Made by a program: the position numbers and the translations under genes. From the NCBI GenBank assembly GCA_017935905.1, contig JAGBGO010000035.1:36064-100063 (forward strand): a DNA stretch of 64,000 bases. The letters run 5' to 3'. Below the pieces are notes generated by a model. The model had not been told where the DNA came from. It did not search any database and saw only the letters and a list, made by a program, of their open reading frames with translations. Positions 20,037 through 59,935 of this stretch are shown one piece after another. Position 1 is the stretch's first letter. Each line of letters starts with the position of its first letter. Origin of the DNA: Clostridia bacterium (GTDB taxonomy: Bacteria; Bacillota; Clostridia; UBA1212; UBA1255).

Positions 20037-20284
20037 GTTGTATATATACCTCCTGCAATTTAATATGTCTGGGCAGAATTTTTCTCTGCACTTTCACTAT
20101 GGCTACTATGATACCACAAATTTCATCCAAATAAAAGTAAAAAAACAATGACATTCCACCGCCATTTTTTATGCACCTTGCCCAAAACTTCGAAAAATGT
20201 CATAATTTCTCAACAATTCCTGTCCCGATATGTTATATTATAGAAGTGTTTTACGGAAACTACTACAGAAAGGATCGTGTCCTT

Positions 20285-21568
20285 ATGAGCAACACAACGC
20301 TTCCTACGGAAGAACAGAACAAGCAACCTTCGGAGCAGCCGAAGCAAAAGAAGGTAAAGATTAAGAAGTACAAGCTTACCGTGATGGATTACATCACCAT
20401 CGGTTTTACCGCTGTGATCGTATTGATTATGGTATTTATTTTACTTCGTACGATTCGTCCGGATTGGTTCCAATCTTCTAAGCAGAACAACGGGCAACCT
20501 TCTGCTTCCATGAGTGCTACAGAAGAGCCTTCCTCGGATCCCACCCTTTCCGACAATGGAAACACGTACGGAAACTTTTCCAATAGCCCTTGCATCGCCG
20601 AGATCGACGATCGGTTGTATTTCGTTTCCGCCGGAGATGACGCAAAGCCTTATTTGTACGTAAAGGCGGAGGGCGAGACGAGAAAATTGGTACAGGACAA
20701 CGTTTTCTGTCTGAACGTGATTTCCGATCCTTTCACCTATGCAGATGACGCCAAAGCGTACGCATACACCGTGTTCTATTTAGATGCCGACGGCAATATT
20801 TGTTGCGTGACAGACGGTCCGGTTTACAGCGATGCACCCTTTATGGAAAATGTCGTTGAGAAGAGAATCTACAAAGAGGGCGCCTACAAGTCCATTGCGG
20901 TTCGCGGCGAATATTTGTTCTTTATTGACAAGGACGGCCACGTAGGCAAGATGTCTTTAATTGAGGAAGCCTATACGGTACTCAGCAAAGAAAGCTACAA
21001 AGCGTTGTCCGTGTATGGCACCAGCATTTTTGCACAGCACGAAGACGGTACCATTTACTTGCTGTCCACGGTGGCACGCCCCGTAAGTACACCGACACCT
21101 ACGCAAGATCCTTCTGCTTCTCCCGAAGCTACGGCAACTGCAACACCTGCACCTACGGAAACTGCAACGCCGGTTCCCGGTGTGGATGAGTATGAGATTC
21201 AAATTCTGACGGAGAAAGTAACCCACTTCTGTGTAGACGGTTCTTATCTCTACACCGTTTCCGACAGCGGCATCGTTCGTCGCTCCGGCGATGGCACGAT
21301 GAAGGATACGTTAAGCAAGCGGAAAGCTGAATATATTAACGTTCTGGACGGTCAGATTTTTGTGGTTTCTCAAGGAACGCTTTACGTAGGTACGGCAGCA
21401 CAGTACGTTTCCGGCACAGAAGTTGCCATCGGCAGCGTATCCTCTTCGATCGGCATTAGTTTGACAGAGGATGCAGTATACGTATACGCCGGCGGCTTGA
21501 AGGTTTCCACCTACGATAAAGAAACAGATAAGTACAGCGCGCTTACCAAGGTGACTTTGCCGGCGTAA
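20285..21568 (+). CDS. Membrane-anchored protein with a DUF5050-like beta-propeller repeat region
   Basis: An AAAGGAT ribosome-binding site lies 9 nt before the ATG at 20285. It has an N-terminal transmembrane anchor and a Pro/Thr-rich segment. Motifs of the form hYhhxxxdGxhxk recur (RLYFVSAGDD, EYLFFIDKDGHVGKM, GTIYLLS, SYLYTVSDSGIVRR, GQIFVVSQGTLYV). Confidence 0.4.
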   Translation: MSNTTLPTEEQNKQPSEQPKQKKVKIKKYKLTVMDYITIGFTAVIVLIMVFILLRTIRPDWFQSSKQNNGQPSASMSATEEPSSDPTLSDNGNTYGNFSNSPCIAEIDDRLYFVSAGDDAKPYLYVKAEGETRKLVQDNVFCLNVISDPFTYADDAKAYAYTVFYLDADGNICCVTDGPVYSDAPFMENVVEKRIYKEGAYKSIAVRGEYLFFIDKDGHVGKMSLIEEAYTVLSKESYKALSVYGTSIFAQHEDGTIYLLSTVARPVSTPTPTQDPSASPEATATATPAPTETATPVPGVDEYEIQILTEKVTHFCVDGSYLYTVSDSGIVRRSGDGTMKDTLSKRKAEYINVLDGQIFVVSQGTLYVGTAAQYVSGTEVAIGSVSSSIGISLTEDAVYVYAGGLKVSTYDKETDKYSALTKVTLPA

Positions 21569-21592
21569 GCGGAGCGTTTTTCAAAAAAACGA

Positions 21593-21630
21593 ATCCCCGT
21601 GGTTTTTCCGAGGCCACGGGGATTTTTATA
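21593..21630. terminator. Bidirectional rho-independent terminator between convergent genes
   Basis: The hairpin ATCCCCGTGGtttttccgaggCCACGGGGAT is flanked by an A-tract upstream and TTTTTAT downstream. Confidence 0.6.
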
Positions 21631-21681: not shown

Positions 21682-22518
21682 TTATCGAATCAATTCATAT
21701 ACGTCTTTAATGCTGTCAAACACGTAATCCGGCTTTTCGGCTTCCGGCAGCGCCGCAATGTCGTCCAATGTGGCCTCTCCCGACAACACACAAATAGAAT
21801 AAACCCCGGCATTCTTAGCAGACATAATATCCGTATGCAAGCGATCTCCCATCACAGCCACTTCGCTGTGTTTCAGACCCATTTTCTCGATTACCATATC
21901 AATCATACTGGGATTGGGTTTTCCCGCGATGAAAGAAGGCTTGCGCCCGGTGGCGCCTTCGATCATCAGCATAAAGGAACCGGCATCGGGAATCGAGCGT
22001 CCCGCTTTCATAGGACAAACCATATCCGGGTGGGTGGCCCAATAGGTTACGCCGTCTGCTAAATAATCACAGAACACGCAAAGACGGCTATATTCCAATG
22101 TGGTATCAAAACCCAACACAGCAAAATCCGGACGCTTGTCAGGATCTTCCGTATATTCCGTTACAATTTCAAAGCCTGCCTCCCGGAATGCCGTAATCAG
22201 CGCCGGTGTGCCAAGCACCACCAGGCGGGCGCCGGGCTTCACTTTATTCAAATGGAAAATAGTGGCATTCACCGACGTACAGAAATCCTCCTCTGCCGCC
22301 GCAATGCCTAATTTGCCCAACTTCTCCACGTAGGCCTGTGTATTCTTGGAAGAATTATTGGTGATATACACCGCATTTTTACCCTGAACCTTCAAAGTTT
22401 CCAAGAAGTCCAGCGTGCCGTCAAATAACGTGGTATCCAAATAAATGGTACCGTCCATATCCAACAGGAAATATTTTACATTTTTCAGCGGTGCGGGATC
22501 TTTCGTATTTCGTTGCAT
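21682..22518 (-). CDS. HAD-superfamily subfamily IIA hydrolase (NagD/p-nitrophenylphosphatase-like)
   Basis: It has the FLLDMDGTIY motif I, the ...YITNNSSK motif and a C-terminal GD...D motif. Confidence 0.75.
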   Translation of the reverse strand: MQRNTKDPAPLKNVKYFLLDMDGTIYLDTTLFDGTLDFLETLKVQGKNAVYITNNSSKNTQAYVEKLGKLGIAAAEEDFCTSVNATIFHLNKVKPGARLVVLGTPALITAFREAGFEIVTEYTEDPDKRPDFAVLGFDTTLEYSRLCVFCDYLADGVTYWATHPDMVCPMKAGRSIPDAGSFMLMIEGATGRKPSFIAGKPNPSMIDMVIEKMGLKHSEVAVMGDRLHTDIMSAKNAGVYSICVLSGEATLDDIAALPEAEKPDYVFDSIKDVYELIR

Positions 22519-22519
22519 C

Positions 22520-24688
22520 TTATTTACCTCCTATGCGGGACATACTTCTTTGTGCCATCACTAAATCGTGGTAAATGCCTTTCTTAGCCAACAATTCTTC
22601 GTGAGTACCCACTTCTGCAAGGCCGCCTTTGTCCAATACGAAAATGCGGGTAGCATTGCGCAGGGTGGAAAGTCGGTGGGCAATGGCAATCGTCGTGCGA
22701 TCCTGAATCAAAATCTGCAAAGCATCCTGAATCTGTTTTTCCGTCTCCGTATCCAAGGATGCGGTAGCCTCGTCCAGAATTAAAATCTTTGGATCCCGAA
22801 GCAGCGCCCGGGCAATGGCAATGCGTTGCCGTTCTCCTCCGGACAACGTCTGACCTTTCTCCCCCACTCGGGTTTGGTAGCCCTGGGGCAATTTACAAAT
22901 AAACTCGTGGGCACCGGCAATCTTAGCGGCGCGGATAATTTCATCTCGGGTCGCCGTAGGTTTCGCGTAGCGCAGATTGTCGTAGACACTGCCGGCAAAC
23001 AGGAAAGTTTCCTGCAGCACCGCACCCACTTGGGAGCGGAGAGATTCCTGAGAAAACGTGCGAATATCCGTGCCATCGATGCGGATTTCCCCTTCCGTTA
23101 CGTCATACAGACGCATCACCAGGTTAATCAACGTAGATTTGCCCACACCGGAATGCCCCACAAGCCCGATCATTTCACCGGGGTGAATTTCAAAGGAAAT
23201 ATCCTTTAACACTTCCGAAGTCGGATCGTAGCCAAAGGAAACGTGATCGAAGGTAATGGTGCCTTCAATCTCTACGTCCTTGGCAGCTTCCGTATCCGCA
23301 ACTTCCGGCGTTTCATCCAGCACGTCAAACAAACGCACCAGTGCGGTGACCGCCCGCGCCAGGGCAGTGGGAATTCTGGTGAGCCATTGGATGGGCCCGT
23401 AAATCAGGGATACGTACGACGTAAACATCGTAGCCTCACCAATGGTCATAGTGCCGCCCAAAATTTTCTTTCCCGTGTAATACAACAAGAAGTACGTGCC
23501 CAGCGTTAAAGAAAAACGAATAAAGGGAGAAACCTTCGCCCAGAAAACTTCGTTGCGCACGGCAATCTGCCGTTCCTCGCCTGCCGCGCTACCGTAGCGC
23601 TCCGCCTCCCGGTCTTCCGTACCGTAAGACTTTACCACCCGGATGCCGGAGAAAATATCAAACAACACGTTTCCGGCACGGCTGCCGGCACGCCACTGCT
23701 GACCGTAGAGCTTTCGCACCTTGTGATGGAAGCCTCGCATCGCGGCAATAGCAATAGGCATGGGTAAAATGACGATTAAGAACAACCGCCAATCGTATGC
23801 CAGCATAACGCCGGCGATGGCAAGAAGCAACAACACTTGCCCAAAAATATTGGGAATTTCATATACGATAAAAGCTTGTACGTCCTGAGTATCTTGCCCA
23901 ACCCTTTGAATCAATTCACCGGCAGTCCGACGGGAGATTTGGGAGAGGGACATACTGTGGACTTTTTCAAAAACGTTTTCCCGAAGGCGCACGGAAATCC
24001 GCACGGCAGCTTGCATAATGGTAATGTTTCGCAGGATATTCACCACTTCATTGAGCAAGTAAACGCCCAACATAGAAAGTACCACTGCTACAAAGCCCGC
24101 AGCCACTTGTCCCGGTGCAGATTGCACCAAGGCTTGCATTTCGCTGTTTCTGATGTAATGGTCTACCAGAACTTTGCTCACGTAAGGGCCTAACAAGCCT
24201 ACTGCCGCTGCCAGCAAGAAGAATACAGCGGATCCAATTAAATATTTCTTGTACGGCAGTGCCAGTTGTACAAATCGGGCAAAAACTTTCTTTTTGTCCA
24301 CGCATTTCATACAAACGCTGTCGGGTCTTGGCAATTTCGCACCGCACTTGGGACATTTTGCAGTACCGGCGACTTGTAAATCTTCCGGAAAATCCCCGTT
24401 TTTCTTGTAAAGATTCAGCAAACGCACGACTTCCGCAAACAAATTGCGGTGCTCCATAGTACTGCGACACAGAATGCGGAAATGGCCTTCTGCATCTTTA
24501 TATTCTAAAGAAACGCTGCCATTTTCCCCACGAAGCAAGAACTCCTGCACGTCGGAAAAAGCCACAACCCGCGCCTGTTCGCCGTCTTCAAAGCACGTCA
24601 AAACCTCCCGGGTCACTTCCACCCGGCCTGTACATAGGTCGCCGCCCAGCGTCAGGTTATATCGAATTTCATTTCCAGCCGCCTTCAA
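22520..24688 (-). CDS. ABC exporter (fused TMD-NBD half transporter) with a ~150-aa N-terminal cytoplasmic extension ending in a zinc ribbon
   Basis: A TTG start is preceded by an AAGGAGG ribosome-binding site. The N-terminal extension contains CPKCGAKLPRPDSVCMKC. Six transmembrane helices and a C-terminal nucleotide-binding domain follow, with Walker A GHSGVGKST, LSGGERQR and ILILDEATASLD. Confidence 0.75.
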   Translation of the reverse strand: MKAAGNEIRYNLTLGGDLCTGRVEVTREVLTCFEDGEQARVVAFSDVQEFLLRGENGSVSLEYKDAEGHFRILCRSTMEHRNLFAEVVRLLNLYKKNGDFPEDLQVAGTAKCPKCGAKLPRPDSVCMKCVDKKKVFARFVQLALPYKKYLIGSAVFFLLAAAVGLLGPYVSKVLVDHYIRNSEMQALVQSAPGQVAAGFVAVVLSMLGVYLLNEVVNILRNITIMQAAVRISVRLRENVFEKVHSMSLSQISRRTAGELIQRVGQDTQDVQAFIVYEIPNIFGQVLLLLAIAGVMLAYDWRLFLIVILPMPIAIAAMRGFHHKVRKLYGQQWRAGSRAGNVLFDIFSGIRVVKSYGTEDREAERYGSAAGEERQIAVRNEVFWAKVSPFIRFSLTLGTYFLLYYTGKKILGGTMTIGEATMFTSYVSLIYGPIQWLTRIPTALARAVTALVRLFDVLDETPEVADTEAAKDVEIEGTITFDHVSFGYDPTSEVLKDISFEIHPGEMIGLVGHSGVGKSTLINLVMRLYDVTEGEIRIDGTDIRTFSQESLRSQVGAVLQETFLFAGSVYDNLRYAKPTATRDEIIRAAKIAGAHEFICKLPQGYQTRVGEKGQTLSGGERQRIAIARALLRDPKILILDEATASLDTETEKQIQDALQILIQDRTTIAIAHRLSTLRNATRIFVLDKGGLAEVGTHEELLAKKGIYHDLVMAQRSMSRIGGK

Positions 24689-24702
24689 CAGCCCAAGCCT
24701 CC

Positions 24703-25224
24703 TTACAAATACAGTTCCAAATGACGGTAACTCTTACGCGGGAGTGCATCCACGCTCATAATTTCATACACGTTGCCGTCCACGTCGTACACCAGCAAAT
24801 GGTCCGGCGTGATTTTGGTAATAGAGCGGTAGGTGTCCTGCACAGAGAACGATTTCTTGCCGCTTGCCGTAGTCACGTCCCAGTGAGTAAATCCGTACCG
24901 TTCTTTAATTTTCTCAATGGACAGGATTTCCCGGGTAAAATATTTTCTGGAAAGTTCCGTTCTGCAAGCCTCCCGGCTCTCTTCCGAAAGCTCCTGCAAA
25001 TCCCGGATCAAGCCAATTTCTTTCATCTCGCAATCCGTTACAGAAATATGGGTTTCCGGCTCATCAAAGGGAAAACACCGACTGAGCAGCACCCGGTCGT
25101 AATGTTCCTCTCCCATATCCATAGACAAAAATCCCTCGTCGTCACAAAAGGATGCGTTGTCCTTCGTAAGCCACGTAACGTCCACAATCCCGGATAATCC
25201 GTCTTTCTTTTGCTTCTCTTCCAT
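24703..25224 (-). CDS. Hypothetical cytoplasmic protein encoded between the two ABC exporter genes; possibly DUF1854-like
   Basis: The 173-aa protein is acidic and tightly packed between two ABC genes, with its stop overlapping the next ribosome-binding site. The family assignment is from memory only. Confidence 0.35.
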   Translation of the reverse strand: MEEKQKKDGLSGIVDVTWLTKDNASFCDDEGFLSMDMGEEHYDRVLLSRCFPFDEPETHISVTDCEMKEIGLIRDLQELSEESREACRTELSRKYFTREILSIEKIKERYGFTHWDVTTASGKKSFSVQDTYRSITKITPDHLLVYDVDGNVYEIMSVDALPRKSYRHLELYL

Positions 25225-25227
25225 ACT

Positions 25228-27441
25228 TTACTCCTCCACACCGATATTCTTCAGTGCGCTTAACTGAAGTTGATATAACCGGTAATAAATTCCTTTTTGT
25301 TTCAAAAGCTCCACGTGGGTGCCGGTTTCCGGCATCTTTCCCTTCTCAATGACAATTAAACTGTCCGCATTGCGCAGGGTGGAAAGTCTGTGGGCGATCA
25401 TAATGGTGGTCCGGTTCTCCGAAAGTCGTTCCAGGGCCTCCTGAATGGTGCGCTCCGTGGCCGTATCCATGGCCGCCGTGGCTTCATCCAAAATTAAAAT
25501 CTTAGGGTCTTTCAAAATGGCGCGGGCAATGGAAATCCGCTGTCGCTCTCCCCCGGATAAATCCTGATGTCCAAAGCCGATCTTGGTATGATAGCCGTTG
25601 GGCAACCGCATAATAAAATCATGGGCACCGGCAATCCGCGCCGCATGCAGAATTTCTTCTTTGGAAGCGTCCGGATTGGCGTAGGCAATATTCTCCAGCA
25701 CCGTGCCTGCAAATAAATAAGTTTCCTGAGAAACGATGGACACGCTTCTGCGCAAATCCTCAAAAGCCATATCTTTCACATTGACGCCGTCGATATAAAC
25801 GCCGCCGGAATCCACGTCATACAAGCGAATCAACAGATTCGCAAGGGTACTCTTGCCGGCACCGGAATGGCCTACGATACCTAAACGGTGTCCGGCGGAA
25901 ATTTTGAAAGAAATCCCTTCCAGCGTCTTGCGCCCTTTCTCATAAGAGAACTCCACGTCCCGGAACTCCACGTCTCCCCGAATTTCCGGCATAGACACAG
26001 GATGCTCCGCTTCCACAACGTCGGGAGAAGCGTCCGCAATTTCAAACAAACGTTGCATGCCGTTGACGCACCGGGTAAAATTATCCGACATATTGACAAA
26101 GCTAAACATAGGACCGTTCAAAATGCCCACGTAGGAAATAAATACCATTAAAGTACCGTAGGTAATCTGTCCTTTCATCGCCATCCAGCCGCCCACGCCC
26201 CAGACCAGTAAAGTGGAGAAATAAATCAGCAAATTCAAAGACGGGTGACGGGTGTTGTGGAAATACGTCAATTTTCTGGTCATCTCCGCCGCTTGTGTTG
26301 AGTAATAGTTGAATCGGCCGGTCTCTTCTTTCTCCCGGGCAAAGGCTTTCACCACCCGAACGCCGTTCAAAGAGTCGGACAGCACGCTGTTCATAGAGCG
26401 GTTCCGGGCATAACTTCTGGCATTCATCCACCGCTGCTGTTTCAGCACCCGGGTGACGGCATACAGGTAAAATGGCAGCGGAATGAGGGACGCAATGGCC
26501 AAAGGCACGTCAATGGTCAGCATTAAAATAAACACCGTCACCACTTGAATCAGGCTGGAGAAGAACACGGGAAAACCGTTTACAAAGAACCAGTAAATGG
26601 CATTGGAGTCCCGGTTAATCTGGGTCATCAAGCCGCCGGTCTGCCGCCCTGTAAAGAAGCGCATAGACAGTCTGCGAATGCTGTCGAAAATGGTGCGTTT
26701 CAAGTCGTAAATAATCCTGGCAGAGACTTTCGCCGTTACAATATCGCTGACCATCGTAATAAGAATCGTAGCGATTTGCGTGGCCAGCATCAGCGTAACC
26801 ACAAACAAAAGATCTCCGTAGAACTTTCCCCGAATATCCAGCACTTGGTCGTAGAAGAACGACGTGGACAAATACGGAGAAACGATGCCCAATATACTGG
26901 TAATGGCCATAGCCAAAAGGGCCAGCAGAATCTGTCCCTTGAATTTCTTGGCAAGGGTTAAGAATCGACCCACAATACTGGCTTTGTCCATACAGTCAGG
27001 ACAAACCTTTCGGTTTGGATCGGGATAACGGCGGTGACATTTCGGGCAAAATTGCTCCTGCAGGAAATCCTGTTCGTCTACCGTAATCTCACCGGTATCC
27101 ATTTGCATTTTTAAGTATTTAGCGAAAAGCCGGCACTCTTGCTTTCGGCTGTTGGTTAAAGTAGCAAGCAGCTTCCGCTTCCCTTGATATTCTCCAATGA
27201 ATACGCAAGTGCCGATCTTCTCTTCAATGGCTGGATTCTGTAAATCTTTCAAGGCATAGGTTTGGACGCGGTCTCCGTCGGAAATCAGCAGCGTGTCTTT
27301 GGTGGCCGCCAAAACGATTTCCCGCTCGTCATAATGGGCATTCAAATCCGCCCGGGCAAACAAAAGAACGTCCTCCGGGCTAACTTTCATCTTATGTAAT
27401 ATTTCGCCTGCACCATCGGTGCGTTGCGATAATTCCAACAT
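25228..27441 (-). CDS. ABC exporter (fused TMD-NBD) paralogue with an N-terminal zinc-ribbon extension
   Basis: The N-terminal ~150 aa contain CPKCHRRYPDPNRKVCPDC. Transmembrane helices and a nucleotide-binding domain follow (GHSGAGKST, LSGGERQR, ILILDEATAAMD). Confidence 0.75.
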   Translation of the reverse strand: MLELSQRTDGAGEILHKMKVSPEDVLLFARADLNAHYDEREIVLAATKDTLLISDGDRVQTYALKDLQNPAIEEKIGTCVFIGEYQGKRKLLATLTNSRKQECRLFAKYLKMQMDTGEITVDEQDFLQEQFCPKCHRRYPDPNRKVCPDCMDKASIVGRFLTLAKKFKGQILLALLAMAITSILGIVSPYLSTSFFYDQVLDIRGKFYGDLLFVVTLMLATQIATILITMVSDIVTAKVSARIIYDLKRTIFDSIRRLSMRFFTGRQTGGLMTQINRDSNAIYWFFVNGFPVFFSSLIQVVTVFILMLTIDVPLAIASLIPLPFYLYAVTRVLKQQRWMNARSYARNRSMNSVLSDSLNGVRVVKAFAREKEETGRFNYYSTQAAEMTRKLTYFHNTRHPSLNLLIYFSTLLVWGVGGWMAMKGQITYGTLMVFISYVGILNGPMFSFVNMSDNFTRCVNGMQRLFEIADASPDVVEAEHPVSMPEIRGDVEFRDVEFSYEKGRKTLEGISFKISAGHRLGIVGHSGAGKSTLANLLIRLYDVDSGGVYIDGVNVKDMAFEDLRRSVSIVSQETYLFAGTVLENIAYANPDASKEEILHAARIAGAHDFIMRLPNGYHTKIGFGHQDLSGGERQRISIARAILKDPKILILDEATAAMDTATERTIQEALERLSENRTTIMIAHRLSTLRNADSLIVIEKGKMPETGTHVELLKQKGIYYRLYQLQLSALKNIGVEE

Positions 27442-27456
27442 ACGAAACAATCTTCC

Positions 27457-27945
27457 TTACTCTTCCGCAATTTGGCTGTACGTAATGGTGAGCACGTATC
27501 CGTCTGCGTCAATCAAAAACGTAAGCACCGTATCTTTCTTTGTGTAAATTAAATTTCCGTGCAAAGGATCCTCTATAAATTCCGTGCCGTATGCCGAAAG
27601 GACAGTCTCACGTGTATCGCCTATGGCCACTTCCTCTTCCGTGGTGACCGCATTGCTGCGAAGGATAATCGACGTGATCACTTCTTTATTTTGCACCATG
27701 CCGGTAATTACCATAAAATGGGGATACGTATAGGTGGTTTGATCGCCTTCCGGAATGCGGTTCTCATAAGTGCCAAACGCTTCTTCCCCGATGGAGAACT
27801 CGGTGCCTACCCGCACGCCTTGAAATTCAAAATAAGGTTTCTCATCAGGCGGTGTGACTGCGGGCTTTCGCTGCTTGCAACCCCCGAAAAAACACAGGGT
27901 GCATGCCAAAAGGATCGTGCAAATCACCAACTTACCCTTACCCAT
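27457..27945 (-). CDS. Putative lipoprotein
   Basis: The start MGKGKLVICTILLACTLCFFGGC has a lipobox-like FFGGC. A ribosome-binding site precedes it. It is the first gene of the lipoprotein-ABC-x-ABC operon. Confidence 0.5.
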   Translation of the reverse strand: MGKGKLVICTILLACTLCFFGGCKQRKPAVTPPDEKPYFEFQGVRVGTEFSIGEEAFGTYENRIPEGDQTTYTYPHFMVITGMVQNKEVITSIILRSNAVTTEEEVAIGDTRETVLSAYGTEFIEDPLHGNLIYTKKDTVLTFLIDADGYVLTITYSQIAEE

Positions 27946-28037
27946 AGAAACCCCACCTTTCTTGCAAAAAAACATACGCTATTATGATAATTTATTTCCC
28001 GCCTACTGTCAAGAAATATCGGCCTTTTTTACGCATT

Positions 28038-28066
28038 GCAACCCCTTGCCAATTATGTTACAATGA
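28038..28066 (+). promoter_or_regulatory. Sigma-A-type promoter for pgi
   Basis: TTGCAA-17-TACAAT lies upstream of the pgi ribosome-binding site. Confidence 0.45.
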
Positions 28067-28098
28067 CCCTGTTATTTTATCATAAAGGTGGTTTGACT

Positions 28099-29430
28099 AT
28101 GAGTTTTATCCGTTTTGATTACACGCGTGCAGACAAATTCTTGTCTGAAGATGAAATTTTGAATTTAAAGGGCCAGGTGGTAGATGCCCACAACACCCTG
28201 CACAACAAGACCGGTGCCGGCAGCGATTTTACCGGTTGGGTAGATCTTCCCGTGAATTATGACAAGGAAGAATACGCACGTCTTAAGAAATGCGTAGAGA
28301 AGATCCGCAAAGATTCTCAGATTCTTGTGGTGGTTGGTATCGGCGGTTCCTATTTGGGTGCCCGCGCTGCCATTGAAATGCTCAGTCCTTCTTTCTACAA
28401 CGTTGAGTGTATTGCCGGCAAGAAAGGTGCGATTCGCAAGTCCGATACGGCGGTGATTTTCGCCGGCAACAGCATCAGCTCCAACTATTTGGCAGACCTT
28501 ATGGATTTAATTGAAGGTTGCGATATTTCCGTAAACGTAATTTCTAAATCCGGTACCACCACGGAGCCTGCTATCGCTTTCCGTATTTTGAAAGAATATA
28601 TGGAGAAGAAATACGGCAAGGCTGAGGCCGCTAAGAGAATTTACGCTACAACCGACAAGGCACGAGGTGCTCTTCGCACCTTGGCGACGCAGGAAGGTTA
28701 CGAGACGTTCGTAATTCCCGATGACGTAGGCGGCCGTTACTCCGTATTAACTCCCGTTGGTTTGCTGCCGATCGGCGTTGCCGGTATGGATTTGGATCAG
28801 ATTATGAAAGGTGCGAAAGATGCATACGATCGCTATTTTGAGCCGGACGTAACCAAGAACGATTGCTACGCCTATGCGGCTGCCCGCAATGCTTTGTACC
28901 GCAAAGGTAAGACCATTGAGATTATGGTAAACTACGAGCCTTCTCTTCACTATATGACCGAGTGGTGGAAACAACTCTACGGCGAGAGCGAAGGCAAAGA
29001 CGGCAAAGGTATCTTCCCTGCAGGGGTAGATTTCAGTACTGATCTTCACTCCATGGGCCAGTACATTCAAGACGGTATCCGGAATTTGTTCGAAACTGTT
29101 TTGTTGGTAGAGGCACCCCGTCGCTCCGTCATCATCGAGGCAGACGAGGCAAACTTGGATGGACTCAATTATCTTGCCGGCATGGACGTAGATTACGTAA
29201 ATAAGCAAGCGGCAGAAGGTACGTTCCTCGCTCACAGAGACGGCGGCGTTCCCAACTTGTTCTTGAACATCCCTGCTTTGGATGAATACAACTTCGGCGC
29301 TTTGGTTTACTTCTTCGAGAAGGCTTGCGGCATCAGCGGCTATATGTTAGGCGTGAATCCTTTCAACCAGCCCGGCGTGGAGGCGTACAAGAAGAATATG
29401 TTCCACTTGTTAGGGAAGCCCGGATATTGA
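28099..29430 (+). CDS. pgi: Glucose-6-phosphate isomerase (short bacterial type)
   Basis: [15 protein letters not shown]... is about 444 aa with the PGI family signature regions and the SIS fold. An AAAGGTGG ribosome-binding site is present. Confidence 0.85.
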
Positions 29431-29551: not shown

Positions 29552-29956
29552 TTAAATTTTCTGTTTAAGAAAATCTTCAAGCGCCATCAACCACAATTCA
29601 TCTTTTTCTTTTTCGGCTCTCAACTTACAAGCATTGAGTTCGTTTTCCAATAACGGAAAGGGCATTTTCAACAATCTATCAAATATAATGTATGCGCCCG
29701 GCCAGTTTAAATCTTGTAACCACTCAAACAACAGGCACAAATATGGCTTCAGTTCTTCATCTGTTTTTAATGCAAGGACCCTTGCACACGGCTCCCAAAT
29801 ACATTTTGATTTTTCAGGAATTACCGGCTGAATAAAAGGATAAAGATATTTATATTTTTTCGCCTCATTGATGCCCACGGAGATCTTCGTTTCATATTCT
29901 TCATCCGTGTACGACGAATCCCAAATAAATGATTCATAAATTTCGTCTAATGTCAT
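29552..29956 (-). CDS. Hypothetical protein (DUF5071-like)
   Basis: The 134-aa protein has a WLQDLNWPGA motif. The family is recalled from memory. Confidence 0.35.
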   Translation of the reverse strand: MTLDEIYESFIWDSSYTDEEYETKISVGINEAKKYKYLYPFIQPVIPEKSKCIWEPCARVLALKTDEELKPYLCLLFEWLQDLNWPGAYIIFDRLLKMPFPLLENELNACKLRAEKEKDELWLMALEDFLKQKI

Positions 29957-29978: not shown

Positions 29979-30887
29979 TTATAAACATTCTGCCCAAACC
30001 ACGTATTTTTCCAGCAGCGTCACCGGCTGGTAGGCAAGTTTGGACGTACGAAGGGATTCATTGCCCATATCGTCTTCCCGATTGACGTACAGAATTTCAG
30101 AAGTTCCGTACATTTTAGCAAATTCGGAGGCAATTTTCTGGTAGGCGCCGGGATACGTCCGGGAGGCTTTTTCAATGTGTTCGTAGAGCATATTGCCTCG
30201 CTTGCTGCCAATGGCAAAAGCCACCACGTCCCCGCCCACTAAAACGCAAGTGCCAAGCAGTCCGTACAATTCATAGTTCTCCAGCACTTCTTCCACGTAG
30301 CCCATTTCCGTGATTGCGCCCTCCGAGCGAGCTTGTCCGCCGTAGACAGCTAAAAACTTTTTACACAAGTCCAAATTCTCCCGGGAAATGGCCGTTACGC
30401 AGGCGTCCGGATATAATTTATGGAAGCGATTGACAAAATTCCGCTGGCCGTGAAGCTTCTTCCCGGGGAAAGTCTGCATAGAGTTTACGTCATACACGTA
30501 ATCCGCCCAATCCCGCATAGATTGGCAGCGGGCAATGGTAAAATATTCCTTCAATGTCTCCACTTGTGCCGGCGTTACGGGACTGAAAATCAATGTTTCC
30601 CCGCGGCTTTTTACAGTTTCCGCCAGTTTATGGAGGGCAGCACCCAAATTTCCCTCTCCGCAAGGCACGGAATAAGCCACGAACCCGTCGGGGTGGATGA
30701 TTCTGAAGAACAGCATTTTCGAATCTACACAAAAAGCCGTTTGAAAATGATGCCGCCACATAAAAATGGTGCCGGGGAGCGTGTCACATATATTTCCCTT
30801 TTCAAAAGCCAAATACTTGCATACGAAATCGTAATCTGCAAGGGTCAGCGGCTTAAAATCAAGCATGCTATCACATCCGCCGGCCAT
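29979..30887 (-). CDS. DUF2156 / LPG-synthase-C-like (GNAT-fold) protein
   Basis: The 302-aa protein has a GKKLHGQRNFVNRF block that resembles the conserved region of the phosphatidylglycerol lysyltransferase C-terminal domain family. Confidence 0.45.
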   Translation of the reverse strand: MAGGCDSMLDFKPLTLADYDFVCKYLAFEKGNICDTLPGTIFMWRHHFQTAFCVDSKMLFFRIIHPDGFVAYSVPCGEGNLGAALHKLAETVKSRGETLIFSPVTPAQVETLKEYFTIARCQSMRDWADYVYDVNSMQTFPGKKLHGQRNFVNRFHKLYPDACVTAISRENLDLCKKFLAVYGGQARSEGAITEMGYVEEVLENYELYGLLGTCVLVGGDVVAFAIGSKRGNMLYEHIEKASRTYPGAYQKIASEFAKMYGTSEILYVNREDDMGNESLRTSKLAYQPVTLLEKYVVWAECL

Positions 30888-53660: not shown

Positions 53661-53760
53661 CGCAGAAAATCAACGAAAATATACATTTGGAAGTCCAAAT
53701 TGTATACAAATCGCCATTTTACCGTGAAAATATACCGGAATTTATGCAATCGTTAAAGTA
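53643..53760. repeat. Dispersed intergenic repeat, copy B
   Basis: It aligns with 37783-37915 at about 75% identity. Confidence 0.6.
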
Positions 53761-54200
53761 TCCCCCCGGACGTAACAAGGATCGTCACCGCCATAGTACA
53801 CAGACGTACCCCAAATGGGTACAAATTTTACAGAAATTTCCCGCTCCACAATCAAGGTAAAAGAAACCTTTTCACGGAAATCATTCTCAGCGTTATCGTC
53901 CACACCAATTTGCAGCGTATAATAACATTGATTACCAACCTCAATTTTGCAGAAACCGGTAGAGGCGGAACCTTCCACATACGACAAATTAACCGCATAC
54001 TGTCCCGGCGCTAACGTCATCGTGTTGGAAGTATAGAGATCTTCCTCTCCCTGCAAGATCTGAATATCCAAAGTATAGTTGGCAGCAACAATCCGGTTAC
54101 TGCCGGAATCTACACCGGCGGTAAAATACCCAAAGGCTGCAAAACTCATCGATGTGAGCAAAAGCACAATAGATACAAAAGAAAAATATATTTTTCTCAT
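53742..54200 (-). CDS. Small secreted protein (152 aa), last gene of the SipW/TasA-like operon
   Basis: The signal peptide is MRKIYFSFVSIVLLLTSMSFAAFGYFTAG. Its start overlaps the upstream gene in an ATGA arrangement. Confidence 0.45.
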   Translation of the reverse strand: MRKIYFSFVSIVLLLTSMSFAAFGYFTAGVDSGSNRIVAANYTLDIQILQGEEDLYTSNTMTLAPGQYAVNLSYVEGSASTGFCKIEVGNQCYYTLQIGVDDNAENDFREKVSFTLIVEREISVKFVPIWGTSVYYGGDDPCYVRGDTLTIA

Positions 54201-54826
54201 GCGGCACCCCCTTGCTGGGTCGCGCGAACAATCAACCCTAAATCTACTTCCGGCACCACTTCGCCTCGGTAATTCGCTTGGTTATCGACCTCTTCCGGCA
54301 TCCGTACGATAAGCGCCACGTATGCAGTTTCCTCGGCACCCAAAGAAGCCTTCTCCGAAGCATATTGATTTAATTCCATATTGGCATAGGCGCAGGCTCG
54401 CTCTCTTGTTCCCACAAGGGCATCCAGCGCGCCTTCGTCTGTGTCAGTCACCAAACCGAATTTCAAATAGTCCTGCAGGATAAACGGCTCTCCCATCATA
54501 TTCTCTGCCACGGTATATCCCGTCACGTTAACAGCAGTATAAAAATCAAAAGGTACAGTTCCCTTGTTCTCCACTTTCAAATAAACCACTTGCACGTAAC
54601 CGGGCTCATACAAAGCGTTGTCATCAAACACCTTTGTATCTGCCTCAAGCTCTTTATACGACCCATCCGCCTGCCTATAAGACACCTTCAACTCAAAATC
54701 TGCAAAATGGAACACGTTCTGTAATTCCGGCGTAGCATCAGAGAACCATGCAATGGAGGTACCGGCACCCAAAATAATCCATAACAAAATCAAGCCTACA
54801 CTGAGGGTAAAAGCAATTTTCTTCAT
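54197..54826 (-). CDS. TasA/camelysin-like protein with a SipW-cognate class signal peptide
   Basis: MKKIAFTLSVGLILLWIILGAGTSIAWFSDA has a motif matching the SipW-cognate signal (..GT.A.FSD). An AAGGAGGG ribosome-binding site is present, and its start overlaps the previous stop in an ATGA arrangement. Confidence 0.55.
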   Translation of the reverse strand: MKKIAFTLSVGLILLWIILGAGTSIAWFSDATPELQNVFHFADFELKVSYRQADGSYKELEADTKVFDDNALYEPGYVQVVYLKVENKGTVPFDFYTAVNVTGYTVAENMMGEPFILQDYLKFGLVTDTDEGALDALVGTRERACAYANMELNQYASEKASLGAEETAYVALIVRMPEEVDNQANYRGEVVPEVDLGLIVRATQQGGAA

Positions 54827-55467
54827 GCTTTTTCCCTCCTTTTTCGCAAGATAAACAGCAAGATTAACAGGAAACCCGCCCCACCTAAGATCGCAAACCA
54901 CAAAGGCCGATTAAAAGTATCGCCCGTAGGCGGCACCGGGTCGTCATTTTCCACTGGAAACTCCTCTACCTTAAATTCCCAATCCAAATAGCCGGTCTGC
55001 CCGCTATATTCATTGCCAAGGGTCACCGGCACCTCCAAAAGAACTTCCAGATTGACCACGCCGCCGGAATACAAAGTACCCAAGCAAACCCAATCGGAAA
55101 GTTGCGCCGTTTCGGAAGCTGCGCTGTCAAACATATACGCCATGGTATTGTCCGAAGCGGCCCGCACTTTCAGTCCCAACTGAGACAAAAATCCTTCCGA
55201 GCCCGCCTGCGCACCCAAGGCGCGCAGATAGATCTTTACTTTAACCTTCTTAGAGGCTTCATTTCGAACTGTAATGTTTTGTGTCAATGTATCCCCGGGC
55301 ATAACGTCCTTAAATGCAGGAAACAAATCCGTAGGAGACTGACTGCTGCCGGGGGTAAAAATAAATTCACCTGAATCTCCGGCATACGTGACGGAACTCT
55401 CCTTTGCCATAGTCGGCAGGCTGAAACACAGCAGCAATATGAAAATGATACAAAAAATTCTTCTCAT
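54823..55467 (-). CDS. Secreted protein with a C-terminal LPXTG-like sorting signal (VPPTG, hydrophobic segment, RKRREKA)
   Basis: It has a standard signal peptide and a beta-rich domain. The C-terminal tripartite cell-wall sorting signal is VPPTGDTFNRPLWFAILGGAGFLLILLFILRKRREKA. Confidence 0.5.
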   Translation of the reverse strand: MRRIFCIIFILLLCFSLPTMAKESSVTYAGDSGEFIFTPGSSQSPTDLFPAFKDVMPGDTLTQNITVRNEASKKVKVKIYLRALGAQAGSEGFLSQLGLKVRAASDNTMAYMFDSAASETAQLSDWVCLGTLYSGGVVNLEVLLEVPVTLGNEYSGQTGYLDWEFKVEEFPVENDDPVPPTGDTFNRPLWFAILGGAGFLLILLFILRKRREKA

Positions 55468-55479
55468 CTTGCCACCTCC

Positions 55480-56046
55480 TTATTCCATCGGCCAACCGGA
55501 AGCCGTATAGGTCTTTCCGTCCGTAATAGGATTATGCTCACTCTGAACTGCGTGGGCAGAAACCGTCAAGGACAGCGTCTTACCAATGTAACGATTATCC
55601 ACTTTATCCCCTACGATTTCCACATGGGAGAAAACGCAAGGCGTTGTTTCGCCCGGTGTTAAAATGCTTTTATAATAGTACCAGCCTTCATGAAACTCCC
55701 AATGCTCTGCGTCAATATTCAATTTGAAACAATCCTCTGCAGAAAGTTCTTGGGCATTCACGCCGTACACCACTTTGACCCGCAGGTAAAATGGGTGGGT
55801 GCACGTGTTCTCAATAGTCACTTCTTTGCTCACCACGTCGCCGGGAACAATGTACACACCCTCACTGGGAAACGCCGTACCTTGCTCTGTGGTTTCGTGG
55901 ATAATAAATTGGATTTCGCCGGAGGTCACTACGTTCGTAGCCTTTCCCACGGTAGAATAAAATGCAAGTGTGCCTTGTGCAAAGAAGGTCATCAAAATGG
56001 CCACCATTGCAATGGCGACAATTTTCAACTTCATACTTCTCAACAC
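55480..56046 (-). CDS. TasA/camelysin-like protein with a SipW-cognate signal peptide
   Basis: The N-terminus is MKLKIVAIAMVAILMTFFAQGTLAFYS. The protein is 188 aa. Confidence 0.5.
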   Translation of the reverse strand: MLRSMKLKIVAIAMVAILMTFFAQGTLAFYSTVGKATNVVTSGEIQFIIHETTEQGTAFPSEGVYIVPGDVVSKEVTIENTCTHPFYLRVKVVYGVNAQELSAEDCFKLNIDAEHWEFHEGWYYYKSILTPGETTPCVFSHVEIVGDKVDNRYIGKTLSLTVSAHAVQSEHNPITDGKTYTASGWPME

Positions 56047-56231
56047 AAAAACCTCCTTTATAATTTTAGTAGAAAAAGGGCATCAGACGATATTGGGGGA
56101 TGCATATCCAATGCCCTTTCTGCCTAAGAGATAATCCTCGGCAGGCAAAAAGTATAAATCTGAAAGAAGCAGGACTTATACCCTTTGCTTGCCGCCCAAC
56201 GCCTCGCAAGGCGTTGGGACGGGCAAAACAA

Positions 56232-58430: not shown

Positions 58431-58450
58431 TTTATTTTTCCTCCTAATCA

Positions 58451-59137
58451 TTAAGCCTCAATGGCCATTCCAACAGTCGCGAAAGCTTCATACGCATTAT
58501 CGCCAACGTGCTCAGTCTGTACCGCCTGAGCCTTTACGTCAATTGCAAAACTGCCGCTAAACGCAGCCGCTTGTTCTCGCGTTAGGGACTCGGGAACCTT
58601 CACAGCGTTGAAGAGTACCAGATCTTCTTCGCTTTCAAGAATATCCGTATAGTACAGTACGTAGGTAACAGTATCTGTTTCGCCATTGATATCTTTCGAG
58701 ATATGATCCCATTTCGTTTCATCAAAACCAACAAAGACCGTGTTCATATCAATATCCAAGCCAACTGCATTGATCCATGCGGTCGCATCAGAAATCTTCA
58801 CAATCACACGAATGTATTGATCGTAATGACCCGTATTGGTAACGTGTGCAATCTTACTGAGTTCGTCACCGGGAAGAATATTCTCATAAACAAGGGACGC
58901 ATCTGTTCTCTCAACATCCTCGACTTCATTAAAGTCACCGTCGCCGTTAGAATCTTTCTGCTCCCATACATCTACAGAGAAAATCTTATCCGGCGTATTG
59001 TCCTCAGAATCAGCAACGAAGAATTCGTTGTACACGCTGTCCTTGTGTGAGAACCATGCGAGTGATCCCATAGAGAGAATGGCGATTAAGCATACTGCCA
59101 AAGCTGTTACAAAAACCTTTTTCTTATTGAACTTCAT
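58451..59137 (-). CDS. TasA/camelysin (peptidase M73 / CalY)-like protein with a SipW-cognate signal peptide
   Basis: MKFNKKKVFVTALAVCLIAILSMGSLAWFSHK is followed by a TasA-like beta-domain. The protein is 228 aa. Confidence 0.6.
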   Translation of the reverse strand: MKFNKKKVFVTALAVCLIAILSMGSLAWFSHKDSVYNEFFVADSEDNTPDKIFSVDVWEQKDSNGDGDFNEVEDVERTDASLVYENILPGDELSKIAHVTNTGHYDQYIRVIVKISDATAWINAVGLDIDMNTVFVGFDETKWDHISKDINGETDTVTYVLYYTDILESEEDLVLFNAVKVPESLTREQAAAFSGSFAIDVKAQAVQTEHVGDNAYEAFATVGMAIEA

Positions 59138-59193
59138 GTTATTTGCCTCCTTTCAATTCATTTTTCTATAAAACGGTGCATAAATCACCGATT

Positions 59194-59403
59194 TTACCGG
59201 TAAAATGGCAATAAAGATAACCACAATTCCCTTCTTTGCCAAATCCAGTACTGCCGTTCTTCCCCTTCCGTGCGGTCAATTTCCGAATTTACATACTGAA
59301 GCTCCCGGCAAAAATCTCTAATCCAAAGAACAAAGCCAACCAGCAAAAGAAAACCAAAACCGCCGCCAATGATGACTGCCAAAATTGCTACCATTTCATC
59401 CAT
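59194..59403 (-). CDS. Small single-transmembrane protein (69 aa)
   Basis: The sequence MDEMVAILAVIIGGGFGFLLLVGFVLWIR... has a ribosome-binding site 12 nt upstream. Its start overlaps the end of sipW. Confidence 0.3.
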   Translation of the reverse strand: MDEMVAILAVIIGGGFGFLLLVGFVLWIRDFCRELQYVNSEIDRTEGEERQYWIWQRRELWLSLLPFYR

Positions 59404-59935
59404 GCGTAGGCGGTACCTCCTTCTTCCGCTTGGCGATTAAATCCGGCAAGAAAACCACAAGAATCAGCGCCACACCGCCGGCCAGTACAAAATACATACC
59501 CGGTGGATTTTGAATAAACTCTGCCACGTATCCCAAATAGGGAATACTGAATTGAGGTACACCGATTACGTTGTTGTAATGCACCGGGGAAGAATCCACC
59601 GTATTGTTAGCGTCACCTTTGGTGTAGAACACTTGCTTCTCTGTATCGACTTCTACAACCCGATGCGTTGCCACCACTAAATTCTCATTTAAGATAAACG
59701 TAATGGGGTCACCCACTTGAATCGTGCTTTTGTCTTTCACGGTTTTTACGTAGATCAAATCGCCTGCGCTGTACGTAGGCTCCATACTGCCGGAAAGCAC
59801 GTTAAACACCCGGTACCCTAATATTCGGGAACCCATCAAGAACACGGCACATAACACCACCAGCACAACGATTACAGTAGACACACTATTCCAAATGCGC
59901 TTTGCACGCTTCTTCGTTCTCTCATTCATAGTCAT
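59396..59935 (-). CDS. sipW: Signal peptidase I, SipW (archaeal/eukaryal S26B) type
   Basis: It has an N-terminal transmembrane helix, the catalytic Ser block VLSGSMEPTYSAGDLIYV, the His/Asp region GDANN and a C-terminal transmembrane helix. Confidence 0.8.
   Translation of the reverse strand: MTMNERTKKRAKRIWNSVSTVIVVLVVLCAVFLMGSRILGYRVFNVLSGSMEPTYSAGDLIYVKTVKDKSTIQVGDPITFILNENLVVATHRVVEVDTEKQVFYTKGDANNTVDSSPVHYNNVIGVPQFSIPYLGYVAEFIQNPPGMYFVLAGGVALILVVFLPDLIAKRKKEVPPTHG

What the first reader, a model, noticed from the sequence alone, without database searches (positions are those of the whole stretch)
22520..27945. Operon of a lipoprotein plus two ABC exporters bearing N-terminal zinc-ribbon cytoplasmic domains, flanking a small conserved protein
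Both ABC half-transporters (22520-24688 and 25228-27441) carry a ~150-aa N-terminal extension before TM1 that ends in CPxC-x12-13-C(M/P)xC (CPKCGAKLPRPDSVCMKC; CPKCHRRYPDPNRKVCPDC). This is atypical for exporters. The genes are translationally coupled, with stop codons embedded in the next ribosome-binding site. They are separated by a 173-aa acidic protein (possibly DUF1854-like) and preceded by a lipoprotein. The N-terminal domains may be regulatory or substrate-recruiting modules of a heterodimeric exporter of unknown cargo.
Basis: partly seen in the sequence, partly recalled or inferred. Interest (0 to 1): 0.55.

Follow-up and report, generated by a model that had tools for sequence, protein, structure and literature searches.

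The report
ABC exporter pair with DUF1854 partner
This is a real, conserved gut-Clostridia operon for a two-subunit ABC export pump in which each subunit carries a PH-like domain plus a zinc ribbon on its cytoplasmic end and works with a small DUF1854 protein; the gene family is already catalogued, but its cargo and the role of these extra domains remain unknown.

Summary
A strong promoter-like site precedes them and a terminator hairpin follows.

The N-terminal extensions are genuine. They are conserved and under purifying selection. The ABC1 extension folds (AlphaFold2, pLDDT 94.6) into a PH-like domain, then a Cys4 zinc ribbon, then the elbow helix before TM1.

The core ABC(PH+Zn)–DUF1854–ABC(PH+Zn) is found in all 43 related loci that have enough flanking DNA. 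In some relatives DUF1854 is fused to the C-terminus of the first ABC protein. The lipoprotein and the HAD gene occur only in the closest relatives.

The module is a sub-threshold relative of NCBIfam's "cyanophycin metabolism-associated ABC transporter + DUF1854" pair. No cyanophycin synthetase gene is nearby. A Gemmatimonadota relative has the N-domain but lacks the zinc ribbon.

Best reading: a heterodimeric type IV ABC exporter with DUF1854 as a cytoplasmic third subunit, where the PH/Zn modules select cargo or gate transport. The cargo is unknown. It is a new variant of a known, uncharacterised kind, of moderate interest.

The parts
27984..28012 (-). Promoter-like site TTGACA-17-TATCAT upstream of the lipoprotein gene
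   Evidence: It matches 11 of 12 consensus positions and is the best site in the region. The sequence was read. It is a consensus match only and has not been shown to function.
27457..27945 (-). Putative lipoprotein (162 aa), first gene of the operon and lineage-specific
   Evidence: The RBS AAAGGTGGGG precedes the ATG at 27945. A signal peptide and a conserved xGC23 lipobox occur in three orthologues. There is no Pfam or NCBIfam hit. Homologues were found only in L001 and L002.
25228..27441 (-). ABC1: type IV ABC half-transporter (737 aa) with an N-terminal PH-like domain and a zinc ribbon
   Evidence: PF00664 scores 123 bits and PF00005 114 bits. NF052233 scores 543 bits against a cut-off of 880, and the alignment covers residues 21-732. 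The Walker A, signature, Walker B-Glu and H-loop motifs are canonical.
27088..27441 (-). ABC1 PH-like domain (residues 1-118)
26986..27057 (-). ABC1 Cys4 zinc ribbon (CPKC-x11-CPDC, residues 129-152), directly before the elbow helix 153-165
   Evidence: The four Cys are invariant in alignment A4. The segment is 24/24 identical to L002 although pS is 0.89. The Pfam DZR match is sub-threshold.
24703..25224 (-). DUF1854 protein (173 aa; acidic, soluble)
   Evidence: PF08909 scores 115 bits against a cut-off of 26.8. NF052234 scores 75 bits against a cut-off of 150. It has no hydrophobic segment and pI 4.87. In P0084, P0093, P0130 and P0146 it is fused C-terminally to the ABC protein. The AlphaFold2 model has pLDDT 82.7 and no significant PDB neighbour.
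22520..24688 (-). ABC2: second type IV ABC half-transporter (722 aa), 35% identical to ABC1
   Evidence: PF00664 scores 150 bits and PF00005 127 bits. The TTG start behind TAAGGAGG is conserved in L001 and L002.
24374..24688 (-). ABC2 N-terminal domain (residues 1-105), aligned with the ABC1 PH-like domain
   Evidence: It aligns with the ABC1 N-domain and is conserved in ABC2 orthologues. Against L002, pN is 0.17 and pS 0.65. Its structure was not predicted separately.
24296..24367 (-). ABC2 Cys4 zinc ribbon (CPKC-x10-CMKC, residues 108-131)
   Evidence: Pfam Zn_Ribbon_1 scores 16.3 bits against a cut-off of 25 at residues 111-129. The motif is conserved in orthologues.
21682..22518 (-). HAD-IIA family hydrolase (278 aa), fifth gene, translationally coupled to ABC2
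   Evidence: The junction reads GGAGGTAAATAAGATG. TIGR01460 HAD-SF-IIA scores 130 bits against a cut-off of 100. The same position is occupied in L002 at 90% identity. It is absent from the more distant loci.
21583..21621 (-). Terminator-like hairpin CCCCGTGG-loop-CCACGGGG followed by a T-run
   Evidence: Read from the sequence. The scan found the same palindrome on the + strand at 21605-21622.

Best explanation
The region is a five-gene operon whose conserved core is a three-gene module: ABC1, DUF1854 and ABC2.

ABC1 and ABC2 are paralogous type IV (ABCB-like) half-transporters, and both have fully canonical ATPase motifs. They most likely form a heterodimeric exporter with two active ATP sites. 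This is inferred from gene adjacency, from distinct ABC1 and ABC2 orthologue groups in all loci, and from general knowledge of the family.

Each subunit begins in the cytoplasm with a PH-like beta-sandwich. A Cys4 zinc ribbon follows, two residues before the elbow helix and TM1. Both modules therefore sit at the cytoplasmic face of the membrane beside the transmembrane domain.

DUF1854 is a soluble, acidic cytoplasmic protein that acts as a third subunit. It is always encoded next to such an ABC gene, and in some lineages it is fused to the C-terminus of the ABC1-type nucleotide-binding domain.

I infer that the two PH/Zn modules and DUF1854 form a cytoplasmic platform. This platform would select or hand over a cargo made in the cytoplasm, or couple cargo binding to ATPase activity. 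C39 and C39-like domains do this in peptide and type I secretion ABC exporters.

The acidic PH-like domains (pI about 5) resemble peptide-binding PTB/FERM-F3/TFIIH-p62 domains most closely. This favours a protein, peptide or polyamide ligand over an anionic lipid.

The cargo is unknown. In beta-proteobacterial relatives it was proposed to be a cyanophycin-like amino-acid polymer.

The lipoprotein and the HAD-IIA phosphatase are lineage-specific additions to the operon.
For: Shown:
- Domain content and canonical ATPase motifs.
- Tight coupling of the five genes, with a promoter-like site and a terminator hairpin.
- A high-confidence model of the ABC1 N-domain as PH-like domain, Cys4 ribbon and elbow helix, with exclusively PH-superfold neighbours.
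- Purifying selection on the extensions.
- ABC-DUF1854-ABC in all 15 genome loci and in 42-43 of 43 loci with at least 2.6 kb on both sides.
- 190 representative clusters carry the N-domain, and 144 of the 150 best have Cys4.
- C-terminal ABC~DUF1854 fusions exist. One fused gene is followed by an ABC2-type gene. Single-ABC versions with DUF1854 also occur.
- DUF1854 has no TM segment or signal peptide.
- No other gene is conserved around the module.
- Both ABC proteins and DUF1854 hit the NCBIfam 'cyanophycin metabolism-associated' models.

From the literature:
Against: - No physical interaction was tested. I could not run a multimer prediction.
- No cargo-synthesis gene is linked to the module in Clostridia, and no cphA is in the window.
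- The scores against the cyanophycin-associated equivalog models are well below their cut-offs.
- The zinc ribbon is missing in a Gemmatimonadota relative and in the ABC2 of L083 and L091, so it is not essential to the family's mechanism.
- PH-like folds are functionally promiscuous, so fold alone does not say what is bound.
- The N-domains could equally be regulatory.
Confidence: 0.55

Rival explanations
1. The PH-like/Zn-ribbon domains and DUF1854 are regulatory rather than cargo-selecting. They would sense a cytoplasmic signal (a metabolite, second messenger or protein partner) and switch the exporter's ATPase on or off, as regulatory domains do in other ABC transporters.
For: The accessory domains are cytoplasmic and attach at the elbow helix (N-domain) or at the C-terminus of the nucleotide-binding domain (DUF1854 fusions). 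The PH part evolves faster than the transporter core (pN 0.17-0.28 against 0.06-0.09). No cargo gene is linked to the module.
Against: No ligand-binding signature is recognisable. DUF1854 has no similarity to known regulatory domains. In beta-proteobacteria, DUF1854 mutants phenocopy the transporter and polymer-synthetase mutants. That fits a required subunit better than a negative regulator.
Confidence: 0.25
2. The module is the Clostridial counterpart of the cyanophycin-associated exporter. It would export a cyanophycin-like, non-ribosomally made amino-acid polymer produced by a synthetase encoded elsewhere in the genome.
For: The best NCBIfam hits are NF052233 and NF052234, 'cyanophycin metabolism-associated'. 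Cofitness with cphA/cphA' was reported in beta-proteobacteria. DUF1854 and the PH domains are acidic, which would suit an Arg-rich polymer.
Against: The scores are far below the equivalog cut-offs (543 against 880; 75 against 150). No cphA-like gene lies in the 64-kb window or within 7-10 kb of the module in about 100 loci. The Gemmatirosa relative, which scores higher (625 bits), also has no adjacent cphA.
Confidence: 0.12
3. The PH-like domains bind inner-leaflet lipids or a lipid-linked substrate. The complex would be a flippase for an envelope precursor, with the lipoprotein acting outside the cell.
For: The zinc ribbon and PH domain sit directly before the membrane-parallel elbow helix. 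MsbA and PglK-type flippase models are among the next-best hits to the core. Some loci have Ddl/MurI or a GH106-like gene next to the module. In this lineage the operon starts with a lipoprotein.
Against: The PH-like domains are acidic (pI about 5), unlike lipid-binding PH domains. The nearest structural neighbours are peptide-binding PTB/F3/p62 types. The neighbouring envelope genes are housekeeping genes found in only a minority of loci. The lipoprotein is not conserved beyond L001 and L002.
Confidence: 0.07
4. The N-terminal extensions are artefacts of mis-called start codons, and the real proteins begin just before TM1.
For: None was found. The only formal point is that ABC2 uses a TTG start.
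Against: The extensions are conserved in sequence, length and Cys4 motif in about 100 loci. They are under purifying selection at synonymous saturation. The ABC1 extension folds with pLDDT 94.6. Strong SD sequences precede the annotated starts, and the TTG start with its SD is conserved in orthologues.
Confidence: 0.01

Closest known systems
DUF1854-associated ABC exporter of beta-proteobacteria (NCBIfam NF052233 'cyanophycin metabolism-associated ABC transporter' with NF052234 DUF1854 protein; Price et al., bioRxiv 10.1101/072470)
   Same: Both combine a type IV ABC half-transporter, an N-terminal extension of about 150 aa that the same HMM covers (profile positions 26-746 of 766), and an adjacent DUF1854 gene. 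A Gemmatirosa member with the same layout was examined here.
   Different: Here there are two paralogous ABC genes flanking DUF1854, implying a heterodimer. A Cys4 zinc ribbon lies between the PH-like domain and the elbow helix; it is absent in the Gemmatirosa member, and I did not examine a beta-proteobacterial one. No cphA/cphA' is nearby. The scores are below the equivalog cut-offs.
Peptidase-containing ABC transporters and type I secretion ABC proteins (PCAT1, HlyB) with an N-terminal C39 or C39-like domain
   Same: In both, a type IV exporter carries a cytoplasmic N-terminal accessory domain that precedes TM1. In those systems the domain recruits the cargo (established knowledge, from memory). 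NCBIfam models of these families are among the next-best hits to the core.
   Different: The N-domain here is PH-like, not papain-like, and there is no C39 Pfam hit. A separate DUF1854 subunit is present. No precursor-peptide gene is nearby.
Bacterial heterodimeric type IV ABC exporters with solved structures (TM287/288, TmrAB, BmrCD)
   Same: They are the closest solved bacterial half-transporters by sequence, aligning from residue 152 onward. Their genes are also adjacent paralogues.
   Different: None of the solved chains covers residues 1-151. Those heterodimers have one degenerate ATP site (established knowledge), whereas both sites here are canonical. They have no DUF1854 partner.
PH-like fold domains (PTB, FERM-F3, TFIIH p62 PH, GRAM, bacterial PHb)
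   Different: Sequence identity is only 4-14%. No Pfam PH, GRAM or bPH model matches. The domain is fused to a zinc ribbon and an ABC exporter.

Membership tests
Pfam DUF1854 (PF08909) | HMM score above the gathering threshold (26.8 bits) | tested here: met
   115.3 bits, E 2.2e-33, residues 42-170 against profile positions 1-128 of 130
Pfam DUF1854 (PF08909) | Encoded next to, or fused with, an ABC exporter | tested here: met
   It is flanked by two ABC genes in the window. The same holds in 43/43 loci upstream and in 42/43 downstream by the script (the remaining locus, L025, also has one). Fusions are shown.
NCBIfam NF052233 cyanophycin metabolism-associated ABC transporter (equivalog) | Score at or above the curated cut-off of 880 bits | tested here: not met
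   ABC1 scores 543.1 bits and ABC2 541.3 bits. It is the best-scoring model, but both proteins are sub-threshold.
NCBIfam NF052233 / NF052234 (cyanophycin-associated pair) | Genomic association with cyanophycin synthetase genes (cphA/cphA') | tested here: not met
   No cphA-like ORF lies in the operon or its flanks, and none of the window's large ORFs that were scanned is one. None recurs in about 100 related loci. The rest of the genome could not be searched.
NCBIfam NF052234 cyanophycin metabolism-associated DUF1854 protein (equivalog) | Score at or above the curated cut-off of 150 bits | tested here: not met
   75.2 bits
Type IV (ABCB-like) ABC exporter half-transporter | ABC_membrane (PF00664) transmembrane domain followed by an ABC_tran (PF00005) nucleotide-binding domain | tested here: met
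   Both proteins score above threshold for both domains. The closest PDB sequences are ABCB1, TM288, Sav1866, TmrAB and MsbA.
Type IV (ABCB-like) ABC exporter half-transporter | Canonical Walker A, Q-loop, LSGGQ-type signature, Walker B with catalytic Glu, and H-loop | tested here: met
   Both proteins carry GHSG(A/V)GKST, LSGGERQR, ILILDEAT and IAHRL.
Heterodimeric ABC exporter | The two different half-transporters physically assemble | not testable with these tools
   The only support is genetic: adjacent, coupled paralogues (35% identity) with separate orthologue groups in all loci.
PH-like fold superfamily | Seven-stranded antiparallel beta-sandwich closed by a C-terminal alpha-helix | tested here: met
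Pfam PH / GRAM / bPH sequence families | Significant HMM match in the N-terminal 130 residues | tested here: not met
   No such hit was found. The only bPH_10 match (14.9 bits, cut-off 27) falls in the transmembrane region.
Zinc ribbon | Two CxxC knuckles separated by a short spacer | tested here: met
   The motifs are CPKC-x11-CPDC and CPKC-x10-CMKC. The four Cys are invariant in alignment A4 and present in 144 of 150 homologues.
Zinc ribbon | Pfam Zn_Ribbon_1 or DZR above threshold; actual metal binding | tested here: inconclusive
   Scores are 16.3 bits (cut-off 25) and 14.1-14.2 bits (cut-off 27.3). Zinc binding cannot be tested with these tools.
PCAT / type I secretion ABC exporters | N-terminal C39 peptidase or C39-like domain | tested here: not met
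   There is no Peptidase_C39 hit. NCBIfam matches to these families begin only at the transmembrane domain.
Bacterial lipoprotein (first gene) | Signal peptide ending in a lipobox with an invariant Cys | tested here: met
   The sequence has an MGKGK n-region, a hydrophobic core and FGG-C23. The G-C is invariant in three orthologues. Lipidation itself was not tested.

The most novel reading that the evidence does not exclude
The PH-like domain, zinc ribbon and DUF1854 together define a distinct, previously undescribed cargo-recognition apparatus for type IV ABC exporters. It would be a Gram-positive secretion route in which PTB-like domains capture a cytoplasmic peptide, protein or polyamide cargo, possibly through a conserved tail, and DUF1854 hands it to the transporter. 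This would be independent of cyanophycin synthetases.
Probability: 0.15. Interest if true: 0.7.

Novelty: new variant of a known kind. Interest (0 to 1): 0.4.

Why it matters
DUF1854-linked ABC exporters are widespread in gut and rumen Clostridia and occur in other phyla. The searches found 743 DUF1854 clusters and 190 representative N-domain clusters. No member has a known cargo, structure or mechanism.

Three results give concrete handles for biochemistry and cryo-EM:
- The N-terminal extension is a confidently predicted PH-like domain followed by a zinc ribbon.
- DUF1854 is an obligate partner, sometimes fused to the ABC protein, whose predicted fold has no solved neighbour.
- The Clostridial form is a self-contained heterodimeric module with no polymer synthetase attached.

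The last point questions whether the "cyanophycin-associated" label applies outside the beta-proteobacteria. If the accessory domains select cargo, this would add a new type of substrate-recruitment domain to ABC exporters.

Tried and rejected
- **Word-indexed search with the ABC1 N-domain.** It returned only one fragment. The exhaustive profile search replaced it.
- **AFDB50 fold search.** The library was not available.
- **PDB sequence searches.** Neither DUF1854 nor the N-domain gave a hit.
- **Rfam scan of 21-29 kb.** It found no leader or riboswitch.
- **Plasmid collection.** There was one hit, an unannotated Gemmatirosa megaplasmid.
- **Conserved third-party neighbours.** A GH106-like protein of about 800 aa, Ddl, MurI and PrmC recur in only 5-6 loci each. 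I judged these to be lineage synteny, not part of the system. An apparent 14-locus cluster was a shadow ORF opposite ABC1.
- **Literature.** Only one paper in the library mentions DUF1854 or PF08909. No paper describing PH-like N-domains in ABC exporters was found.
- **Mis-called start hypothesis.** Rejected.


Full report
**1. What is in the sequence**

On the minus strand, five ORFs follow one another with gaps of 15, 3, 14 and 1 nt.
- A 162-aa putative lipoprotein lies at 27945-27457.
- ABC1 lies at 27441-25228 (737 aa).
- A 173-aa acidic protein lies at 25224-24703.
- ABC2 lies at 24688-22520 (722 aa, TTG start).
- A 278-aa HAD-IIA hydrolase lies at 22518-21682.

Every start codon is preceded by a strong Shine-Dalgarno sequence. 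At two junctions the stop codon overlaps it (TAAGGAAG, TAAGGAGG). At the other two the stop lies between the SD and the start codon. The TTG start of ABC2 and its overlapping SD are conserved in the two closest relatives.

The best promoter-like site of the region (TTGACA-17-TATCAT, 11 of 12) sits at 28012-27984. A GC-rich hairpin with a T-run follows the HAD gene at 21621-21583. No Rfam family matches the region.

**2. Identity of the proteins**

Both ABC proteins have ABC_membrane and ABC_tran domains. Both have canonical Walker A, signature, Walker B-Glu and H-loop motifs, and they are 35% identical to each other. Their closest solved relatives are ABCB1, TM288, Sav1866, TmrAB, BmrCD and MsbA. 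Every PDB match starts at residue 152 or later, so no solved exporter has this N-terminal part.

The 173-aa protein is a clear DUF1854 member (115 bits). It is soluble and acidic (pI 4.87).

In NCBIfam the best models are NF052233, 'cyanophycin metabolism-associated ABC transporter', and NF052234, the matching DUF1854 protein.
- NF052233 scores 543 and 541 bits against a cut-off of 880, and the alignment reaches into the N-terminal extension.
- NF052234 scores 75 bits against a cut-off of 150.

These proteins are therefore relatives of that pair, not equivalogs.

The lipoprotein has no family match. It has a conserved signal peptide and lipobox Cys23.

**3. The N-terminal extensions are real**

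In 15 genome loci from Clostridia MAGs, the genes on either side of DUF1854 encode 720-820-aa ABC proteins. Their N-terminal regions align with those of the window, and all four Cys are invariant.

Against the closest orthologues, synonymous sites are at or near saturation. Non-synonymous divergence stays low.

| Part | pS | pN |
|---|---|---|
| PH-like part | 0.65-0.81 | 0.17-0.28 |
| Zinc ribbon | 0.43-1.1 | 0-0.06 |
| Transporter core | 0.57-0.69 | 0.06-0.09 |

The zinc ribbon of ABC1 is 24/24 identical to that of L002.

An exhaustive HMM search of 1.84 billion representative proteins with the two N-domains found 190 clusters at E ≤ 1e-3. Of the 150 best, 144 carry CxxC-x8-20-CxxC. All hits of 700 aa or more that were listed carry the motif at residues 117-217, ahead of the transporter core.

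**4. Fold of the N-domain**

AlphaFold2 was run on ABC1 residues 1-170 with a 93-sequence alignment and gave pLDDT 94.6 and pTM 0.82. The model contains, in order:
- a short helix;
- seven beta-strands (27-96);
- a long capping helix (97-116);
- the Cys4 knuckles (132-150);
- a helix (153-165) that leads into TM1.

**5. DUF1854**

DUF1854 is not detectably homologous to the N-terminal PH-like domain.

Its extreme C-terminus (I/L-E-L-Y-L) is almost invariant in the Clostridial clade.

**6. Conservation of the arrangement**

A metagenome scan added 80 loci. Of the 43 loci with at least 2.6 kb on both sides of DUF1854, all 43 have an upstream ABC gene with the Cys4 motif. The script counted 42 with a downstream one, and the apparent exception also has one, just outside the distance window.

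Several variants exist.
- DUF1854 is fused to the C-terminus of the ABC1-type protein in P0084, P0093, P0130 and P0146. One such fusion is followed by an ABC2-type gene.
- Single ABC genes occur with DUF1854, either fused or adjacent, which implies homodimers.
- ABC2 in L083 and L091 kept the N-domain but lost the zinc ribbon.
- A Gemmatirosa (Gemmatimonadota) megaplasmid carries a single 759-aa ABC gene (NF052233, 625 bits) plus DUF1854. Its N-domain has no Cys4.

No other gene is conserved around the module. The lipoprotein and the HAD gene occur only in L001 and L002. A GH106-like protein and Ddl/MurI/PrmC recur in only a few loci. No cyanophycin synthetase gene was seen in the window or in any locus.

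**7. Mechanism**

Shown:
- The conserved genetic unit is ABC(PH+Zn)-DUF1854-ABC(PH+Zn).
- The accessory parts are cytoplasmic.
- DUF1854 can be covalently attached to the nucleotide-binding domain.

Inferred:
- ABC1 and ABC2 form a heterodimer with two active ATP sites.
- DUF1854 is a third subunit.
- The PH/Zn modules sit next to the elbow helices at the inner face of the membrane and act, together with DUF1854, in cargo selection or in coupling.

The domains are acidic, and their nearest structural neighbours are peptide-binding PTB/F3/p62-like domains. This leans towards a peptide-like ligand, but fold alone is weak evidence.

The only functional data for the wider family come from RB-TnSeq. 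[quoted passage not shown] Whether that cargo applies here is doubtful, because no synthetase is linked to the module.

The rivals are given with their tests in the rival-explanations section: a purely regulatory role, cyanophycin-like polymer export, and lipid or lipid-linked substrate binding. The mis-called-start artefact is excluded.

**8. Comparison and novelty**

The link between the ABC gene and DUF1854 is known from the Pfam note, NCBIfam and Price et al. The N-terminal region is implicitly part of an NCBIfam model. I found no paper that describes its fold, the zinc ribbon or the heterodimeric Clostridial form.

I therefore rate it a new variant of a known but uncharacterised kind. The finding is sound and the family deserves experiments. 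It is not, however, a surprise of the first order, and I score its interest at 0.4.

Noticed in passing
window 53742-59965 (minus strand): A cluster of secreted proteins with TasA/camelysin-like (Peptidase_M73) N-termini. These are the 739-aa ORF at 56232-58451 and the 188-aa ORF at 55480-56046, with similar 'AWF(T/S)D'-type signal regions in neighbouring ORFs. A type I signal peptidase (S26) lies at 59396-59965. The layout resembles a SipW/TasA-type fibre operon.
   Followed up: partly
window 29979-30887 and 29552-29956 (minus strand): A stand-alone protein with the C-terminal domain of phosphatidylglycerol lysyltransferase (LPG_synthase_C, 119 bits) lies next to a DUF5071 protein. Both sit just beyond the divergently transcribed gene at 28036-29430, which I assumed to be pgi without checking.
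   Followed up: no
L006:4770-7190, and homologues in L007, L009, L010 and L013: A cytoplasmic protein of about 800 aa with only a borderline GH106 (alpha-L-rhamnosidase) match is transcribed divergently, directly upstream of ABC1, in five to six otherwise different Clostridia loci. It is absent from the window.
   Followed up: partly
L024, L025, L027, L029, L032 (ABC2 genes): In one bioreactor/metagenome clade the ABC2 protein is shorter (672-695 aa) and its zinc ribbon sits at residue 73-96. The PH-like part of the second subunit appears truncated there.
   Followed up: no
L007, L008, L010-L014 (DUF1854 genes): The DUF1854 proteins of the Flemingiibacterium-like group carry a 30-60-residue insertion rich in Asp, Glu and Lys near the N-terminus. 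The window protein lacks it.
   Followed up: no
window 20171-21568 (+ strand): A 465-aa membrane-anchored protein with a DUF5050 domain and Pro/Thr-rich linkers converges on the operon's terminator.
   Followed up: no
L016 3055-6003: In the Gemmatirosa megaplasmid, the gene upstream of the single ABC+DUF1854 pair encodes a 982-aa protein. It shows only weak, far sub-threshold matches to a TolB-like beta-propeller and to S9/Dpp5-like peptidases, and it is not a cyanophycin synthetase.
   Followed up: no
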